From the NCBI GenBank assembly GCA_949280815.1, contig CASDJM010000001.1:41036-105035 (forward strand): a stretch of DNA of 64,000 nt. The letters are read 5' to 3'. The position numbers were made by a program, and so were the translations under genes. Positions 19,222-23,510 of the stretch are shown here, piece by piece. This DNA is from an uncultured Clostridia bacterium. GTDB taxonomy: Bacteria; Bacillota; Clostridia; TANB77; CAG-508. The notes under the pieces were generated by a model, which ran no database searches, was not told where the DNA came from, and worked only from the letters and a program-made list of their open reading frames with translations. The stretch's first letter is position 1, and each line of letters starts with the position of its first letter.

Positions 19222-19334
19222 TGAAAAAATAAAAAATATGTGTTGTATTCGTGGTACAACACATACGACTTATTTTGAATAACACCGATTCAATTTTGCA
19301 TCTAAATAATAATATATAATCTTGTACTTGTCAA
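19222..19334 (-). repeat. Repeat module A1. A minus-strand sigmaA-like promoter (TTGACA-17-TATTAT) is followed about 40 nt later by a hairpin and a U-run (predicted about 75-nt transcript, 19222..19298).
   Basis: -35 at reverse complement of 19329-19334, -10 at reverse complement of 19306-19311; hairpin TATGTGTTGTA..TACAACACATA followed by TTTTTTATTTTTT. Confidence 0.4.
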
Positions 19335-19631
19335 ATGGATTTCAAGTTTTTAGTTTTACACATTAAATCCTTTGCTTTCCATATATTCATATACCATATT
19401 TTTATAATCAATAATAAACTTTTCCCTAGTCTTTTCATCAATCTAATCTAATTCTAAATATGGTGATATATCTTCTATTTCAGTTAATAAAAGCGTATTA
19501 TCTTCTAGTTTTATAAAATCTATTCTTTGAATTCCATAATAATTCCCATTCATTATACAATAAAAAAGAAAAGAATAATGCTAACATTTTGTTTACTTTG
19601 TTATCATAAAACACATTAATCATTTTATCAA

Positions 19632-19698
19632 AAAATTATCCCTTATGGTAAGATAGTTGATAGCATGTGCTATCGACTCCTTACCTCCACTCACAAAA
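19632..19698. repeat. Repeat module B1: a structured element of about 65 nt (GGTAAG...GATAGC..GCTATC...CTTACC nested hairpin, then TCCACTCACAAAA)
   Basis: One of three near-identical copies (19632, 20971, 23447). Confidence 0.5.
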
Positions 19699-19721
19699 TT
19701 TTGTATTTATAAAAACTCGAT

Positions 19722-19780
19722 GATACTATTACTGAAAAAAACTTGAAGTGTCTTCATTTTGTCCGCTTGTATTGTTAGTA
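19722..19780. repeat. Repeat module C1 (TACTGAAAAAAACTTGAAGT...TTGTCCGCTTGT); a second copy is at 21181..21232
   Basis: Direct sequence similarity between the two regions; both are preceded by TTGTATTTATAAAAACTC. Confidence 0.4.
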
Positions 19781-19895
19781 GAAAAAGAAAAAGTATGTGC
19801 ATTCGCGGGTACACATACAACTACAAGTTTGACCATTGGAATCAAACACATTTATTTTGTAATTAAATAATAGTATATTCTTTTGCATTTGTCAA
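19781..19895 (-). repeat. Repeat module A2: minus-strand promoter TTGACA-17-TATTAT, then the hairpin GTATGTG..CACATAC and a U-rich run (predicted about 79-nt transcript, 19781..19859)
   Basis: -35 at reverse complement of 19890-19895; -10 at reverse complement of 19867-19872; the conserved segment TTGACCATTGGAATCAAACACATTTATTTTGTAATTAAATAATAG is shared with A3. Confidence 0.4.
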
Positions 19896-19931
19896 ATCAA
19901 ACTTCTTCATATTCTACATTATATTGTTTTA

Positions 19932-20411
19932 TTAATTATTTTTTAAATCATATCTATAAATTTTAGTATAATGTCCATCTCCTAAAGGTGCTTTTTCTAA
20001 AAATTTCCATCCCATTTTTTCATAATAATTTTCATGGTCTGTAATTAAATATAGGTATTTGTAGTCCATTTTCCTAGTCTCCTCTATTACTCTCTTTTGT
20101 AATAATGTTCCTACGCCTTTATTTCTATATTCTTCTTTAACAAATAACGCTGCCATCCATGGGTATAAATCTTGTCTTGATTTTAAATCATTTCTCCATA
20201 TTGAAACAACTCCTATTACTTCTTCTTTACATTTAGCAATATACATTTGAGGAATATCTTTCTCATTTAATGAATATTTTGACCTATAAATTACATCTTC
20301 TAATTTATTGTTATGTTCCTTATCCCATTCTTTCCATATCCATTTTGATACTTCTTCCAAGTGTTTTATATCATCTAATAAATTGATAACTTTAACTTCT
20401 TCTATCAACAT
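19932..20411 (-). CDS. GNAT family N-acetyltransferase
   Basis: acetyl-CoA-binding motif EEYRNKGVGTLLQKRVIE. Confidence 0.75.
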   Translation of the reverse strand: MLIEEVKVINLLDDIKHLEEVSKWIWKEWDKEHNNKLEDVIYRSKYSLNEKDIPQMYIAKCKEEVIGVVSIWRNDLKSRQDLYPWMAALFVKEEYRNKGVGTLLQKRVIEETRKMDYKYLYLITDHENYYEKMGWKFLEKAPLGDGHYTKIYRYDLKNN

Positions 20412-20431
20412 ATTTCTTCTCCTTACTGTAT

Positions 20432-20872
20432 CTAATTTTCATATATATCATCATTTATTTTTAATACCATTCTTGTCCAATGAGTTTTAAATCCTAATCT
20501 TTCATATAAATCCTTTGCAACATTATATCCTGATACATCTAATGTCATATCTTTATCTTGCTGTTTTGCTATGTCAATCATTTTATTTAATACTATTGTT
20601 CCTATTCCTTTCCCCCTATATTTTTCATCTATAAAAAATCTATATACATATATTTGTTTTTTATAATTTTTTATTCCTATAAATCCAACCATTTTGTTAT
20701 CATCCATGATTTTATAGTATTCTTCATTTTCTTCAAAAGTTAACTCTTCTGGTTTTATTATTCTTAATTGATATATTGGATCAACTGTATTATGATGTTT
20801 CCATTCCTCTATAATCCATTCTCTAAAATAATCATTATTTTCTTTTTCCAATTTTACATCTAAATTTTCCAT
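20432..20872 (-). CDS. GNAT family N-acetyltransferase
   Basis: motif EKYRGKGIGTIVLNKMIDIAK. Confidence 0.75.
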   Translation of the reverse strand: MENLDVKLEKENNDYFREWIIEEWKHHNTVDPIYQLRIIKPEELTFEENEEYYKIMDDNKMVGFIGIKNYKKQIYVYRFFIDEKYRGKGIGTIVLNKMIDIAKQQDKDMTLDVSGYNVAKDLYERLGFKTHWTRMVLKINDDIYEN

Positions 20873-20970
20873 TTATACTACTCCTATCATTTTTCTTTAT
20901 AAGATTATCATAAGCTTACAAATTTTACAATAAAATCATAAAAAGAATTACTTGCAATTTTTCTTAAAAT

Positions 20971-21308: not shown

Positions 21309-21434
21309 ATGACCGTTGGTGATGCAATTCTTAATTTAGTTGACAAGTTACTAACTGAAAGAGAAAAAGTCATAAGACTAGAACTTTCACAGCAACATCA
21401 ATTAAATAAAGATGAGCAATCGGACAAAGACTAA
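21309..21434 (+). CDS. Small ORF (41 aa) with a strong RBS. It is the only plus-strand ORF inside the element.
   Basis: AAAGGGGGT 6 nt before the ATG; MTVGDAILNLVDKLLTEREKVIRLELSQQHQLNKDEQSDKD; preceded by the palindrome GAAAAGGCTAGCCTTTTC. Confidence 0.35.
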   Translation: MTVGDAILNLVDKLLTEREKVIRLELSQQHQLNKDEQSDKD

Positions 21435-21487
21435 TTGTAGACATACATAAGTCGATAGAGTAGATGGTTGCAGTCTGCTCTATTTTT

Positions 21488-21602
21488 GAACAAAAAATAT
21501 GTGTGTAGTTGCATTACACACATGTCTACAAGTTTGACCGTTGGTAAATCAAACACATTTATTTTGTAATTAAATAATAGCATATTATTTTGTATTTGTC
21601 AA
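21488..21602 (-). repeat. Repeat module A3: minus-strand promoter TTGACA-17-TATTAT, then the hairpin ATGTGTGTA..TACACACAT followed by TTTTTTG (predicted about 79-nt transcript, 21488..21566)
   Basis: -35 at reverse complement of 21597-21602; -10 at reverse complement of 21574-21579. Confidence 0.4.
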
Positions 21603-21611
21603 ATCAAATTT

Positions 21612-22001
21612 CTAGAATTTTCCAATATTTTCTGTGTAATAAGTCTCTACATAAAATCTATTATCTCTTAACATTTTATCAATAGACTCAAATTTGAAGT
21701 CTGCAAATTCACAACATAATTTTAGTATTTCTTTTTCATTATCTTTATTTAATACGTATTTCTTTATTTCGCCATTTTCAAATTTAAAGATAAATACCCT
21801 ATCTTTGCCTATATATTCATTCCAATATCCATTTTCAATCATTTCACATATATATTTTTCAAATAACTCAATCTTATTATCATCAAAAATAACTCCATAA
21901 TTATTTCCAAAATATTTGATTTTAAAATTGTTTTGTTTCAGTATATCAATATTATTAATTCCCATTAGATAACTATAATTCATATCTTGACCTCTTTTCA
22001 T
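21612..22001 (-). CDS. hypothetical protein (129 aa)
   Basis: ORF only. Confidence 0.4.
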   Translation of the reverse strand: MKRGQDMNYSYLMGINNIDILKQNNFKIKYFGNNYGVIFDDNKIELFEKYICEMIENGYWNEYIGKDRVFIFKFENGEIKKYVLNKDNEKEILKLCCEFADFKFESIDKMLRDNRFYVETYYTENIGKF

Positions 22002-22002
22002 T

Positions 22003-22551
22003 TTACAAATATTCTAAAATTTCTCTAAACTCTTTATATCCATATTTTTCATTAAAATGTCCTTCATTATTTATTAAAACTTTCTTACCTTCAATTTTAT
22101 TTGCAAAAAGCTCTGCTTTTTCTATTGGAACATAGGGATCATTATCAGAATAGATACATATTATTTCATTACAAATTTTACATATTTTTGCTATATCTTC
22201 ATCTGCCATATAAAATGAATCATATAAAGTATTATCTTCATCAAATTGTATTTTATTAAATCCTGCAACTGTAACCATCTTTTTTACTTTTATATTATTA
22301 TCTATTAAGAATTTTACTACAAAAATTCCTCCTAAACTATGTGTAATAAAAGTTGTTTCCTCTGTAATATATCCAACTTTCACATAAGACATTAGTATAG
22401 TCTTCCAGCTTTCATAATCTTGTTTATATGGAGTTGTAAAACTTGGCACTATGCAATTTAATTTTCTTTTACCTAATTGTTTTTTTACGTATGGAATCCA
22501 ATTTTTATATGGATTACCATAGGAACCATGAATAATAAAATAATTTTTCAC
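22003..22551 (-). CDS. Alpha/beta serine hydrolase, YdeN/RBBP9-like family
   Basis: IIHGSYGNPYKNW ... THSLGG (nucleophile elbow). Confidence 0.65.
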   Translation of the reverse strand: MKNYFIIHGSYGNPYKNWIPYVKKQLGKRKLNCIVPSFTTPYKQDYESWKTILMSYVKVGYITEETTFITHSLGGIFVVKFLIDNNIKVKKMVTVAGFNKIQFDEDNTLYDSFYMADEDIAKICKICNEIICIYSDNDPYVPIEKAELFANKIEGKKVLINNEGHFNEKYGYKEFREILEYL

Positions 22552-22566
22552 TCTTATTTCTCCTTA

Positions 22567-23319
22567 CTATATCTCTAAAATCATATCATCTTCTGCTACT
22601 ATTATTTCAATATCATACTTTCTTCTTAATTCATCAGCTATTTTAATTGGATTACTATTTATTATATTACTATTAAAATGGGTCAATATAACTTTTCTAG
22701 GTTTTATCTTTTTTATAAATTCTTCAACATTTGATATGTCTAAATGCTTTGGTTTCAGCTTATCTTGAATATAATAAGGTACATTCATTATTAATATATC
22801 ACTATCTTTATATGATTCTAATAATTCTGGGAAGTATACGGTATCTGTTACAAGTCCAATATTACCTTTACTTGTCTTAAATATAAATCCATAATTTTCT
22901 ACACCATGCTTATGTTCTATTGATGAAATAATTGGTATATTTTTTATTTTGTATTGTGTGTTAGGATTTATTGTATTAATTTCTTTTGGAAAACTTTTTA
23001 CATAAGGTTGCAAAATTCTTTCTTCTATTGCTTGGTTTGGCACTAATAGTGTTCCTCTATTTACTTCTCCACCATTTGTCATTAATTCAATAAATATATT
23101 TAAATCATTAGAATGGTCTATATGTATGTGGGATAGAACGATTCCATCTAACTCATCTTTGTAAGCATGTATGTATTTATAAAATGTATTAACTCCTGGG
23201 TCTATGATAATCTTTGTATCATCTATATTTAAAAATAGACCTCCTGCTTGTCTAATGTTCTTAAAAAATATATCTTTATTTCCAGTTGTTCCAAAAAAGT
23301 GAATAAAATCTCTTGCCAT
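22567..23319 (-). CDS. MBL-fold metallo-hydrolase
   Basis: HIHIDHSND metal-binding motif. Confidence 0.7.
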   Translation of the reverse strand: MARDFIHFFGTTGNKDIFFKNIRQAGGLFLNIDDTKIIIDPGVNTFYKYIHAYKDELDGIVLSHIHIDHSNDLNIFIELMTNGGEVNRGTLLVPNQAIEERILQPYVKSFPKEINTINPNTQYKIKNIPIISSIEHKHGVENYGFIFKTSKGNIGLVTDTVYFPELLESYKDSDILIMNVPYYIQDKLKPKHLDISNVEEFIKKIKPRKVILTHFNSNIINSNPIKIADELRRKYDIEIIVAEDDMILEI

Positions 23320-23446
23320 AAATTATTACTCCTTCTTTCATTTTATATTTTTACCAATTTTACCATAATACAACAAAAAAATAAAGAATCATACTAACAT
23401 TTTAACTACTTTCTCATCATTAAAATAAATTAATAATTTTATCAAT

Positions 23447-23510
23447 AAATTGTCCCTTGGTAAGATATGCGATAGCATACGCTATCACATACTTACCTCC
23501 ACTCACAAAA
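23447..23510. repeat. Repeat module B3
   Basis: AAATTGTCCCTTGGTAAGATATGCGATAGCATACGCTATCACATACTTACCTCCACTCACAAAA. Confidence 0.5.

What the first reader, a model, noticed from the sequence alone, without database searches (positions are those of the whole stretch)
19222..23510. Array of repeat modules inside the element: three promoter-hairpin-U-run units, three copies of a 65-nt nested-hairpin element, and a third shared segment
Module A (3 copies) has a near-consensus minus-strand promoter (TTGACA-17-TATTAT) followed within about 40 nt by a hairpin and a U-rich run. That predicts transcripts of about 75-80 nt. The hairpin sequence varies but pairing is preserved, and each copy sits just 3' of a cargo gene stop. 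Module B (3 copies at 19632, 20971, 23447) is a conserved nested hairpin (GGTAAG..GATAGC-loop-GCTATC..CTTACC) about 100-150 nt upstream of cargo genes. Module C is shared between 19722 and 21181. The arrangement resembles a cassette array and may encode small RNAs or 5' leaders, but I do not recognise it as a described family. There is no IntI and no canonical attC core.
Basis: seen in the sequence. Interest (0 to 1): 0.6.

Follow-up and report, generated by a model that had tools for sequence, protein, structure and literature searches.

The report
Antisense RNA modules in integrated element
The repeats are real: they are reused backbone pieces of a small element integrated in a zinc-transporter gene, and two of them form an unannotated antisense-RNA/small-protein gene pair built like a type I toxin-antitoxin system and common in gut Clostridia.

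Summary
All three repeat families are confirmed. The region is the cargo part of an ~8.6-kb serine-recombinase element inserted in a ZIP zinc-transporter gene (flanking repeat ACCAGAAGGAA).

It holds three head-to-tail units: X-B, cargo genes, A, then a + strand small ORF driven by C.

Modules A and C are two halves of one locus. A is a ~75-nt sRNA gene.

The sRNA pairs with the ORF's start-codon region, and its terminator loop pairs with the mRNA's terminator loop. Both contacts covary across at least 7 sequence variants. This matches the architecture of the pAD1 par/Fst type I toxin-antitoxin locus. The peptide, however, is hydrophilic and has no Pfam, NCBIfam or Rfam match.

Only A3-sORF-C2 is intact. 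A1 and A2 are orphan sRNA copies.

Module B is a strand-specific nested hairpin after a conserved GUGGAGGUA. In related conjugative elements it sits directly before an uncharacterised wHTH protein and coupling-protein operon. Its role is unresolved: oriT/sso-like site or RNA leader.

There is no integron-like cassette system; unit boundaries are imprecise.

Verdict: a new variant of known kinds, of moderate interest.

The parts
23681..23691 (-). attL core: direct repeat ACCAGAAGGAA (sense strand) at the break in the ZIP gene (codons HDIPEG)
   Evidence: Read from the sequence. The same junction is present in 15+ related MAG loci.
23646..24137 (-). N-terminal fragment of the interrupted ZIP (zinc transporter) gene
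   Evidence: Pfam PF02535, E=5.5e-16.
23626..23680 (-). Conserved left-end arm of the element (attL arm, P' side)
   Evidence: 90-95% identical in all related insertions. Forms an imperfect inverted repeat with the attR arm.
23521..23625 (-). Module X, copy 3: conserved segment with an inverted repeat (ATGGCATTTT / AAAATGCCAC) whose arms covary between element variants
23459..23509 (-). Module B, copy 3: GUGAGUGGAGG flank plus nested hairpin (hairpin 23459-23497). The sense strand is fully paired, with G.U pairs.
23320..23443 (-). Post-B segment with an extended -10 promoter-like site (TGgTAAAAT) and the RBS for cargo unit 3
   Evidence: Read from the sequence. Conserved in L035, L009 and L026.
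21612..23319 (-). Cargo unit 3: MBL-fold hydrolase (22567-23319), serine hydrolase (22003-22551) and a 129-aa protein of unknown family (21612-22001)
   Evidence: Pfam.
21494..21602 (-). Module A, copy 3: promoter (21602-21574) plus a ~75-nt antisense sRNA (about 21567-21494; terminator 21523-21499). Cognate partner of the sORF.
21309..21434 (+). sORF: 41-aa hydrophilic peptide MTVGDAILNLVDKLLTEREKVIRLELSQQHQLNKDEQSDKD. Its start-codon region is complementary to the A3 sRNA.
   Evidence: Coding conservation across variants. 220 homologous clusters. Duplex energy -36 kcal/mol against -14.1 +/- 3.3 for shuffles.
21452..21485 (+). Terminator hairpin of the sORF mRNA. Its loop (GGUUGCA) is complementary to the sRNA terminator loop (UGCAAC).
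21147..21308 (+). Module C, copy 2: sORF promoter (TTGTTT 21217-21222, 17-nt spacer, TAATAT 21240-21245) and 5'UTR. A conserved CCUUUUC stem pairs with the SD region.
21045..21146 (-). Module X, copy 2 (arms TATCAAATTT / AAATTTGATA plus a third TTTGATAG repeat)
20983..21033 (-). Module B, copy 2 (canonical sequence, identical to most copies in other genomes)
19932..20872 (-). Cargo unit 2: two GNAT acetyltransferases (20432-20872 and 19932-20411)
   Evidence: Pfam.
19790..19895 (-). Module A, copy 2: orphan sRNA gene of the L009 type. Its sORF has been deleted.
19700..19774 (+). Module C, copy 1: truncated remnant (upstream half of the sORF promoter region only)
19647..19697 (-). Module B, copy 1: most diverged copy, without X, fused directly to the C1 remnant
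19346..19553 (-). Decayed cargo unit 1: 3' remnant of a 277-aa gene that is intact in L024 and L009
   Evidence: 96% identity to the 3' end of that gene.
19228..19334 (-). Module A, copy 1: orphan sRNA gene of the L029/L021 type
   Evidence: Pairs at -33.5 kcal/mol with the L029- and L021-type sORF start regions.
19200..19229 (+). Module C, copy 0: short remnant
   Evidence: family D5.
17217..18765 (-). Large serine recombinase of the element, split by a +1 frameshift at a T5 run (~18150-18170)
   Evidence: Pfam Resolvase, Recombinase and Zn_ribbon_recom. The frameshift is shared with L029 and L009.
15033..15043 (-). attR core: second copy of ACCAGAAGGAA, followed by the C-terminal ZIP fragment (14782-15043)

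Best explanation
The stretch 19222-23510 is the cargo part of an ~8.6-kb integrative element (15033-23691). A large serine recombinase inserted the element into a ZIP zinc-transporter gene.

It consists of three head-to-tail units with the same backbone. On the minus strand each unit reads: X-B (conserved non-coding module), a proximal promoter and RBS, cargo genes, then module A. Module A faces a small + strand ORF that is driven by module C.

(1) A and C are the two halves of one locus built like the pAD1 par/Fst type I toxin-antitoxin system. A strong promoter makes a ~75-nt sRNA. A weaker convergent promoter in C makes an mRNA for a 41-46-aa peptide.
- The sRNA base-pairs with the peptide's start-codon region, which should block translation.
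- Its terminator loop can kiss the mRNA's terminator loop, which would be the likely first contact.
- The pairing is shown by covariation. Translational repression, and toxicity or addiction, are inferred.
- In this window only A3-sORF-C2 is intact. A2/C1 and A1/C0 are decayed copies that lost the ORF but kept the sRNA.

(2) X-B was taken from, or is shared with, conjugative elements of the same bacteria. There it lies immediately upstream of an uncharacterised ~303-aa wHTH protein and the VirD4-type coupling protein.
- B is a nested hairpin that folds only in the sense strand.
- My leading guess is a cis-acting single-strand site (oriT- or sso-like) that lets the element hitch-hike on conjugation.
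- A 5'-leader RNA (an SD-like GUGGAGGUA followed by a stabilising hairpin) is nearly as likely.

(3) The array arose by duplication or accretion and deletion through the shared modules. It is not a site-specific cassette system (inferred).
For: Element and insertion:
- The ZIP gene is split into fragments at 23646-24137 and 14782-15111.
- An 11-bp direct repeat marks both junctions.
- The same insertion occurs in 15+ MAG species. A compact 4.4-kb version is L029.
- A second target gene with a similar 20-bp site is used in L009, L020 and L035.

sRNA/sORF pair:
- The sORF is conserved as coding sequence across diverged variants.
- It has 220 homologous protein clusters of 41-46 aa.
- Cognate sRNA-to-start-region duplexes are -26 to -36 kcal/mol. 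Shuffled controls average -11 to -14, and unrelated variants give -8 to -25.
- All 12 positions (+2..+13) pair in 9 of 11 modules and 11 of 12 in the other two. Across 7 distinct variants, 7 columns change on both sides.
- Terminator loops are complementary over 6-9 nt in 9 of 9 modules, against 2-5 nt for unrelated variants.
- The module also stands alone between housekeeping genes in other genomes.
- A conserved CCUUUUC:GGAAAGG stem sequesters the SD.
- The par architecture is described in PMC7472228.

Module B and X:
- 35 loci in 185,579 species genomes carry B, all in Clostridia MAGs.
- 13 of these precede the ~303-aa family gene. That gene is followed by a T4CP and preceded by T4SS, sortase, adhesin and SpoVG genes, with no canonical relaxase within 20 kb.
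- The protein model shows an N-terminal wHTH.
- Divergent members (L077, L078, L075) keep the nested hairpin with changed arms.
- The L077 sense strand folds at -26.9 kcal/mol (z = -8.3) with 4 G.U pairs. Its antisense strand folds at -8.9 (z = -1.9).

Imprecise unit boundaries: gene remnants and variable breakpoints.
Against: - No expression data exist. Promoter and terminator calls are consensus matches only.
- The peptide is hydrophilic (GRAVY -0.4 to -1.3) with no transmembrane segment. This is unlike Fst/Ldr and most type I toxins, so toxicity is unproven. It could be a regulator instead.
- The two RNAs have separate terminators rather than one bidirectional terminator.
- One metagenomic contig (L062) pairs a start region of one type with an sRNA of another. 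This is a recombinant or an assembly chimera.
- For B as oriT: the ~303-aa protein has no Pfam, PDB or NCBIfam match. Its profile does not match the pTEF1 TraX/Replic_Relax relaxase (hhalign probability 0.9%). X-B has no similar sequence in plasmid or phage collections.
- For B as RNA leader: no convincing promoter lies upstream of B, and cargo genes in these elements have their own promoter-like sites downstream of B.
- The recombinase carries a frameshift.
Confidence: 0.6

Rival explanations
1. The sRNA/sORF pair is not a toxin-antitoxin (addiction) module. It is a regulatory switch in which the small acidic helical protein controls something such as excision, transfer or a host process, and the sRNA simply tunes its level.
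For: - The peptide is hydrophilic and lacks the hydrophobic domain of type I toxins.
- In the basic element L029, the sORF promoter is divergent from the region that leads into the recombinase gene.
Against: - The same module occurs alone between housekeeping genes, far from any recombinase.
- Orphan sRNA copies are common, but no sORF without an adjacent sRNA gene was seen in the 11 modules examined. That asymmetry is expected for a toxin and its antidote.
Confidence: 0.3
2. Module B, with its GUGGAGGUA flank, acts as RNA. It would be a 5'-leader element (an SD-like sequence plus a stable hairpin, like STAB-SD or 5' stem-loop stabilisers of Gram-positive mRNAs) that protects or regulates downstream transcripts. 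X would be its regulated promoter, with variant-specific operator repeats.
For: - The hairpin folds only in the strand that is sense to the downstream gene, using G.U pairs.
- B always points toward a downstream gene, 25-140 nt away.
- In the ZIP-inserted elements, homology continues from B to the RBS and stops at the start codon.
- The SD-like GGAGGU has no start codon after it (sequence).
- STAB-SD reference: Agaisse & Lereclus 1996, cited in PMC7509114.
Against: - No good promoter is found upstream of B.
- Extended -10 promoter-like sites lie between B and the cargo genes.
- Only the B hairpin itself is structurally conserved in the leader.
Confidence: 0.3
3. The array is an integron-like or other site-specific gene-cassette system, in which B (or the C|X junction) is the recombination site.
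For: - The arrangement is repetitive: a conserved hairpin next to varied cargo, with conserved sequence reaching up to the RBS.
Against: - There is no tyrosine integrase. The only recombinase is a large serine recombinase, and its att sites are at the element ends.
- B lies upstream of cargo promoters and also in conjugative elements with no cassettes.
- Unit boundaries differ between relatives and contain gene remnants.
- X and B have no resemblance to the reconstructed attP.
Confidence: 0.05
4. The repeats are copies of a MITE or IS-derived element, or are merely ordinary gene terminators reused by chance.
For: - The modules are short, AT-rich, hairpin-containing repeats in intergenic positions.
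Against: - There are no terminal inverted repeats or target duplications around the modules.
- No further full copy of A, B or C lies elsewhere in the 64-kb window. Only a degenerate A-like sequence at ~30225-30300 was seen.
- Covariation between the sRNA and the sORF mRNA demonstrates selection on RNA pairing.
- There are no hits in phage or plasmid collections.
Confidence: 0.03

Closest known systems
par (Fst / RNA I - RNA II) type I toxin-antitoxin locus of Enterococcus faecalis pAD1 and its family
   Same: - Convergent promoters.
- A short antisense RNA (~40-75 nt) and a ~200-nt mRNA for a 30-45-aa peptide.
- Two separate contact regions: direct repeats covering the translation start, and complementary terminator loops.
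- An intramolecular stem over the SD.
- Found both on mobile elements and as stand-alone chromosomal loci (PMC7472228).
   Different: - The peptide is hydrophilic and acidic, with no transmembrane domain or PXXXG motif.
- There are two back-to-back terminators instead of one bidirectional terminator.
- No sequence similarity to any Pfam, NCBIfam or Rfam family.
- Toxicity is untested.
Type I toxin-antitoxin systems on prophages and other mobile elements of Clostridioides difficile (PMC7699646)
   Same: Clostridial antisense-RNA/small-ORF pairs carried by integrated mobile elements, proposed to stabilise them.
   Different: From my own knowledge, those toxins have a hydrophobic N-terminus and a lysine-rich tail, and their RNAs overlap as true cis-antisense transcripts. 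Here the genes do not overlap, and pairing relies on short repeated segments.
Integrative mobilisable elements and tandem accretion of integrated elements (streptococcal IMEs/CIMEs, PMC5357655; SCC composite islands, from my own knowledge)
   Same: - A small element with its own serine integrase.
- A fixed target inside a gene.
- Cargo genes.
- Composite arrays with decayed units.
- Dependence on a conjugative element is plausible.
   Different: - No relaxase or coupling protein is encoded.
- Internal junctions are not att sites, so units probably multiplied through shared backbone repeats (X and X') rather than by repeated site-specific integration.
oriT with an invariant inverted repeat plus variant-specific short repeats (pAD1/pAM373 oriT2, MOBC relaxase TraX), and ssoA-type single-strand origins
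   Same: - A conserved hairpin next to repeats that differ between element variants.
- Position next to the coupling-protein gene.
- Strand-specific folding.
- The B apex contains TAGCG(T/A), identical to the ssoA CS-6 motif (PMC4598088).
   Different: - The adjacent ~303-aa protein does not match Replic_Relax/TraX.
- The ssoA RSB motif TTATGCCGAGAAAATTT is absent.
- B is 39 nt, against ~140-160 nt for those sites.
- No nic site is known.
Integron gene-cassette arrays
   Same: Serial arrangement of unrelated small cargo genes separated by hairpin-forming repeats.
   Different: No IntI, no attI or attC. The repeats lie upstream of promoters, boundaries are imprecise, and the recombinase is a serine integrase acting at the element ends.

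Membership tests
par/Fst-like type I toxin-antitoxin | Convergently transcribed small mRNA and short antisense RNA | tested here: met
   Promoter and terminator predictions on opposite strands face each other. There are no expression data.
par/Fst-like type I toxin-antitoxin | Antisense RNA complementary to the toxin's translation-initiation region through DNA direct repeats | tested here: met
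   11-12 of 12 pairs at +2..+13 in all 11 modules. 7 columns show double-sided changes. Energies are given.
par/Fst-like type I toxin-antitoxin | Complementary terminator stem-loops arising from a shared bidirectional terminator | tested here: inconclusive
   Loops are complementary over 6-9 nt and covary. However, there are two separate terminators, and their stems are unrelated.
par/Fst-like type I toxin-antitoxin | Intramolecular stem that sequesters the SD of the toxin mRNA | tested here: inconclusive
   A CCUUUUC:GGAAAGG stem is predicted in 8 of 8 variants, but there is no variation to test it.
par/Fst-like type I toxin-antitoxin | Toxin is a small hydrophobic membrane peptide of the Fst/Ldr superfamily | tested here: not met
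   GRAVY is -0.4 to -1.3, with no hydrophobic stretch. No Pfam or NCBIfam hit.
par/Fst-like type I toxin-antitoxin | Peptide is toxic and the RNA neutralises it | not testable with these tools
   Needs expression experiments.
Integron | IntI tyrosine integrase with attI and Pc | tested here: not met
   No tyrosine recombinase was found among the 20 ORFs scanned between 12298 and 35375, which include all large ORFs of the element.
Integron | attC site at the 3' end of each cassette, with precise cassette boundaries | tested here: not met
   B lies 5' of the cargo and upstream of promoters. Boundaries are variable and carry gene remnants.
Integrative (mobilisable) element with a large serine recombinase | Serine recombinase gene at one end, and insertion flanked by a short direct repeat in a specific target | tested here: met
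   The same site is used in 15+ species, and a look-alike site in an ABC ATPase gene is also used. The recombinase is frameshifted.
Integrative (mobilisable) element with a large serine recombinase | Own oriT and/or relaxase that allow mobilisation | tested here: inconclusive
   No relaxase gene is present. X-B is shared with conjugative elements, but oriT function is not shown.
MOBC (Replic_Relax/TraX) relaxase plus oriT2-type origin | Adjacent protein belongs to PF13814 / restriction-endonuclease-like relaxases | tested here: not met
   No Pfam hit for 21 members at E<=10. hhalign against pTEF1 TraX gives probability 0.9%. Foldseek finds only wHTH matches.
ssoA single-strand origin | Conserved RSB (TTATGCCGAGAAAATTT) and CS-6 (TAGCGT) motifs in a ~160-nt strand-specific hairpin | tested here: not met
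   A CS-6-like TAGCG(T/A) is present at the B apex, and folding is strand-specific. RSB is absent by visual inspection of the X and B copies printed; no pattern search was run. The motif sequences are taken from PMC4598088.
STAB-SD / 5' stem-loop mRNA stabiliser | SD-like sequence in a 5'UTR far from any start codon, at or near the 5' end of the mature mRNA | tested here: inconclusive
   GGAGGU is conserved and has no start codon after it. The transcript 5' end is unknown.
Any Rfam family | Covariance-model match | tested here: not met
   Nothing in 19222-23510 reaches a gathering score. The only match below E=10 in 18500-24500 is sau-41, at 25.8 bits against a gathering score of 80.

The most novel reading that the evidence does not exclude
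Two linked claims.

(1) The A/sORF/C locus founds an unannotated, very abundant family in human and animal gut Clostridia. One variant alone is indexed in 6,831 blocks of the contig collection. The family uses par-like two-contact antisense control for a small soluble acidic helical protein, not a membrane toxin. That would be either a new kind of type I toxin or a new sRNA-gated regulator. The orphan sRNA copies kept in element arrays would act as cross-protecting 'anti-addiction' genes.

(2) X-B is the oriT recognised by the uncharacterised ~303-aa wHTH protein family, which would then be a new relaxase (MOB) family. Relaxase-less serine-integrase elements would parasitise it.
Probability: 0.3. 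Interest if true: 0.7.

Novelty: new variant of a known kind. Interest (0 to 1): 0.5.

Why it matters
- If the sRNA/sORF pair is a toxin-antitoxin system, it widens type I toxins beyond small membrane peptides. It would also give an easily testable, highly abundant example from uncultured gut Clostridia.
- The natural set of 7 or more covarying sRNA/mRNA specificities is a ready-made orthogonal antisense toolkit.
- The shared X-B module links small integrase-only islands to a family of conjugative elements that have no recognisable relaxase. It points to the ~303-aa wHTH protein as the candidate DNA-processing enzyme.
- For annotation: the 41-46-aa ORF, its sRNA and B are currently unnamed in Pfam, NCBIfam and Rfam.

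Tried and rejected
- Rfam at gathering and at E<=10 thresholds found nothing relevant.
- IMG/VR scans for B (relaxed pattern) and for A gave only chance hits or none.
- A metagenome scan with the C 5'UTR pattern found only 2 contigs.
- blastn of X-B against the plasmid and phage collections, and tblastn of the ~303-aa protein against plasmids, gave no match.
- For the ~303-aa protein, Pfam, NCBIfam, PHROGs and PDB sequence searches gave nothing significant.
- hhalign against pTEF1 TraX was not significant.
- For the sORF, Pfam, PHROGs and NCBIfam gave nothing.
- RNAalifold on the whole leader between B and the ~303-aa gene found only the B hairpin.
- The MAFFT alignment put the divergent B variants out of register, so formal pair counts under-report covariation. 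I folded those variants individually instead.
- I considered X as a secondary att site and rejected it, because it has no resemblance to the reconstructed attP.
- A window-wide scan for further sRNA targets found only the sORF start region and a degenerate A-like copy at ~30.2 kb.

Full report
**Context.** The window has 29% G+C and carries Clostridia-type genes, including type VII secretion genes, pcrA and prfA. A ZIP-family zinc-transporter gene is split into an N-terminal fragment (23646-24137, minus strand) and a C-terminal fragment (14782-15111, minus strand). Both junctions carry the 11-bp repeat ACCAGAAGGAA, at 23681-23691 and 15033-15043. The flanking arms form the imperfect inverted repeat expected of a serine-integrase attP. 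The ~8.6 kb between the junctions holds a large serine recombinase (17217-18765), a DUF4143 ATPase, and the region of the finding.

The repeat finder and pattern searches reproduce three copies of A, three of B, and two plus one partial copy of C. Shuffled sequence gives no matches. The three A promoters (TTGACA-17-TATTAT) are among the four best promoter-like sites in 10 kb. Each is followed by a terminator-like hairpin; 9 such sites were found against 1.7 expected. The predicted 73-76-nt RNAs fold into two hairpins. Rfam has nothing for any module.

**Relatives.** One scan of 185,579 species genomes for the B hairpin gave 35 loci, all in uncultured gut Clostridium/Clostridia MAGs. Two contexts dominate.
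- In about 20 loci, B lies in the same kind of element as here. It is inserted at the same ZIP site, or, in L009, L020 and L035, at a look-alike site (CATGATATTTCAGAAGGAAG) in an ABC ATPase gene.
- In 13 loci, B lies 25-85 nt upstream of a ~303-aa protein. That protein is followed by a VirD4-type coupling protein and preceded by T4SS, sortase, thioester-adhesin and SpoVG genes. This is a conjugative element.

L029 shows the minimal element. Reading from the ZIP N-terminal side, it runs: left arm, X, B, promoter, cargo, A, sORF, C, a partial X', recombinase, ZIP C-terminal fragment. Other relatives have one to three units with different cargo.

**Modules A and C are one locus.** Between A3 and C2 lies a + strand ORF (21309-21434) with a strong RBS. 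It encodes MTVGDAILNLVDKLLTEREKVIRLELSQQHQLNKDEQSDKD. Diverged variants keep the reading frame and the motif D..IL....K...EREK.I.L while the DNA differs, so the ORF is coding. A profile search found 220 clusters of 41-46-aa proteins, all unnamed and without Pfam domains. Module C is the conserved promoter (TTGTTT-17-TAATAT) and 5'UTR of this ORF.

The A sRNA is complementary to the ORF's start region. Cognate duplexes are -26 to -36 kcal/mol. Shuffled sRNAs average -11 to -14, and unrelated variants give -8 to -25. In 11 modules representing 7 distinct variants, positions +2 to +13 of the ORF pair with the sRNA at 11-12 of 12 positions. Seven columns change on both sides.

A second contact was found. 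The loop of the sRNA terminator is complementary over 6-9 nt to the loop of the mRNA terminator in all nine modules. The loop sequences covary: UGCAAC, CGCGAA, UGUGAA, CACGAA and CGUGAA. Unrelated pairs share only 2-5 nt. A conserved CCUUUUC segment can pair with the SD region.

These features are convergent promoters, terminator-loop contact, direct repeats over the translation start, and an SD-sequestering stem. Together they make up the architecture described for par of pAD1 (PMC7472228).

The differences matter. The peptide is hydrophilic (GRAVY -0.4 to -1.3) with no membrane segment. The terminators are separate. No Pfam, NCBIfam or PHROG family matches.

The module also stands alone between housekeeping genes in other genomes, for example Clostridium sp. 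CAG:245, where one variant is indexed in 6,831 blocks of the contig collection. That fits an autonomous toxin-antitoxin-like module. In the window only A3-sORF-C2 is intact.
- A2 is of the L009 type. It lost its ORF, and C1 is truncated.
- A1 is of the L029/L021 type and has only a 30-nt C remnant.
- I saw no sORF without an adjacent sRNA gene. One contig (L062) carries a mismatched recombinant.

**Modules B and X.** The canonical B reads GUGAGUGGAGG-UAAG-UAGG-CGAUAGC-GUAU-GCUAUCG-AAUAU-CUUACC on the strand that is sense to the downstream gene. It is nearly invariant across elements whose ~303-aa proteins are only 57-85% identical.

More distant members were fetched through those proteins (L077, L078, L075). 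They keep a nested hairpin at the same place with different arms, and they keep the 5' flank GUGGAGGUA. Folding is strand-specific.
- L077 sense strand: -26.9 kcal/mol, z = -8.3, with four G.U pairs.
- L077 antisense strand: -8.9 kcal/mol, z = -1.9.
- DNA parameters give the same asymmetry. Copy B3 of the window shows it as well.

A purely double-stranded palindromic operator is therefore unlikely. B must act as single-stranded DNA or as RNA.

X carries an inverted repeat plus a third repeat of the same motif, and the sequence of these repeats changes in concert between element variants. That looks like a variant-specific protein-binding site.

The ~303-aa protein has an N-terminal wHTH in an AlphaFold model (pLDDT 71). 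It has no family assignment, and it does not match the MOBC relaxase TraX of pTEF1. No canonical relaxase lies within 20 kb.

I therefore favour a conjugation-related cis site (oriT or sso) that relaxase-less integrative elements keep in order to be mobilised. The B apex contains the ssoA CS-6 motif TAGCG(T/A), but the RSB motif is missing.

The rival reading is an RNA leader: an SD-like sequence plus a stabilising hairpin. The strand bias and the fixed orientation toward downstream genes support it. The lack of an upstream promoter weakens it, as do the extended -10 promoter-like sites between B and the cargo genes.

**Origin of the array.** Internal junctions do not resemble the att sites. 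Unit boundaries differ between relatives.
- L024 keeps only the last ~30 nt of the 129-aa gene.
- L009 has a 1.3-kb insertion flanked by TTCTAGTAT.
- Window unit 1 retains just the 3' 208 nt of a 277-aa gene.

The basic element already has X and a partial X' flanking one unit. Unequal or inter-element recombination through shared backbone modules, followed by deletions, explains the array. This step is inferred.

**Verdict.** The repeats are real and functional-looking. B remains mechanistically open. Nothing here is categorically new. Even so, the sRNA/small-protein family and the B/wHTH-protein pairing are unannotated variants of known kinds.

Noticed in passing
window ~18150-18170 (minus strand), within 17217-18765: The large serine recombinase is split by a +1 frameshift at a T5 run (ACT ATT TTT C ATA AGG). 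The identical frameshift is present in L029 and L009, which come from other MAG species. Both halves stay about 93% identical at the protein level by eye, with no other stops. This could be programmed frameshifting or transcriptional slippage, or a shared inactivation.
   Followed up: partly
window ~30225-30300 (+ strand): A degenerate fourth A-like sequence lies here (TTGACA-17-TACTAT, then GTATTTGATTCCCAATCGTAACTTGCAGAC). It is in inverted orientation outside the element and overlaps the stop codon of the WXG100-domain gene (30253-30972, minus strand). No clear terminator or partner sORF was seen.
   Followed up: partly
L009, L020 and L035 (junctions near L009:60-200, L035:340-450): The same element family is inserted in an ABC-transporter ATPase gene at codons HDISEA (CATGATATTTCAGAAGGAAG). 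This mimics the ZIP target HDIPEG (CACGATATACCAGAAGGAAG). The integrase therefore recognises a ~20-bp sequence shared by two unrelated genes.
   Followed up: partly
window 15110-17211: A 2.1-kb segment absent from the minimal element L029 lies between the recombinase and attR. It carries a DUF4143/AAA_14 ATPase and two small ORFs, and has a 12/12 consensus promoter at 17211-17183. It is flanked by two similar copies of the right-arm hairpin (GACTAAATTAATA..TATTAAATTAGTC), at ~17150-17190 and ~15075-15110.
   Followed up: partly
window 12298-14710: The pcrA/uvrD helicase gene appears frameshifted near 14500-14530. A 714-aa ORF begins at Pfam profile position 49, and a separate 73-aa ORF lies upstream.
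   Followed up: no
window 3-12110 (minus strand): One open reading frame of more than 4,036 codons runs off the start of the window. It was not analysed.
   Followed up: no
L062:700-1300: This metagenomic contig has a chimeric sORF. Its 5' end is of the L021 type, while its 3' end, terminator and sRNA are of the L029 type. The start region and the sRNA are therefore mismatched (-9.7 kcal/mol). It is either a natural recombinant or an assembly chimera.
   Followed up: partly
L021:944-1541 and L003:5276-5332: In two relatives, an A module lies upstream of the ZIP gene start, outside the insertion. In L021 it is accompanied by the sORF and C; in L003 only a partial A match was seen. In L021 an IS-like transposase gene lies nearby.
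   Followed up: no
L063-L068:6001-7950: In Clostridium sp. CAG:245-like contigs, the stand-alone sORF/sRNA module sits next to a gene whose product length varies between samples (312-462 aa, no Pfam). This hints at another variable locus.
   Followed up: no
window 50492-50587 and 51958-52033 (minus strand): Ordinary small SRP RNA (Rfam RF00169, 66 bits) and tRNA-Arg(CCU).
   Followed up: yes
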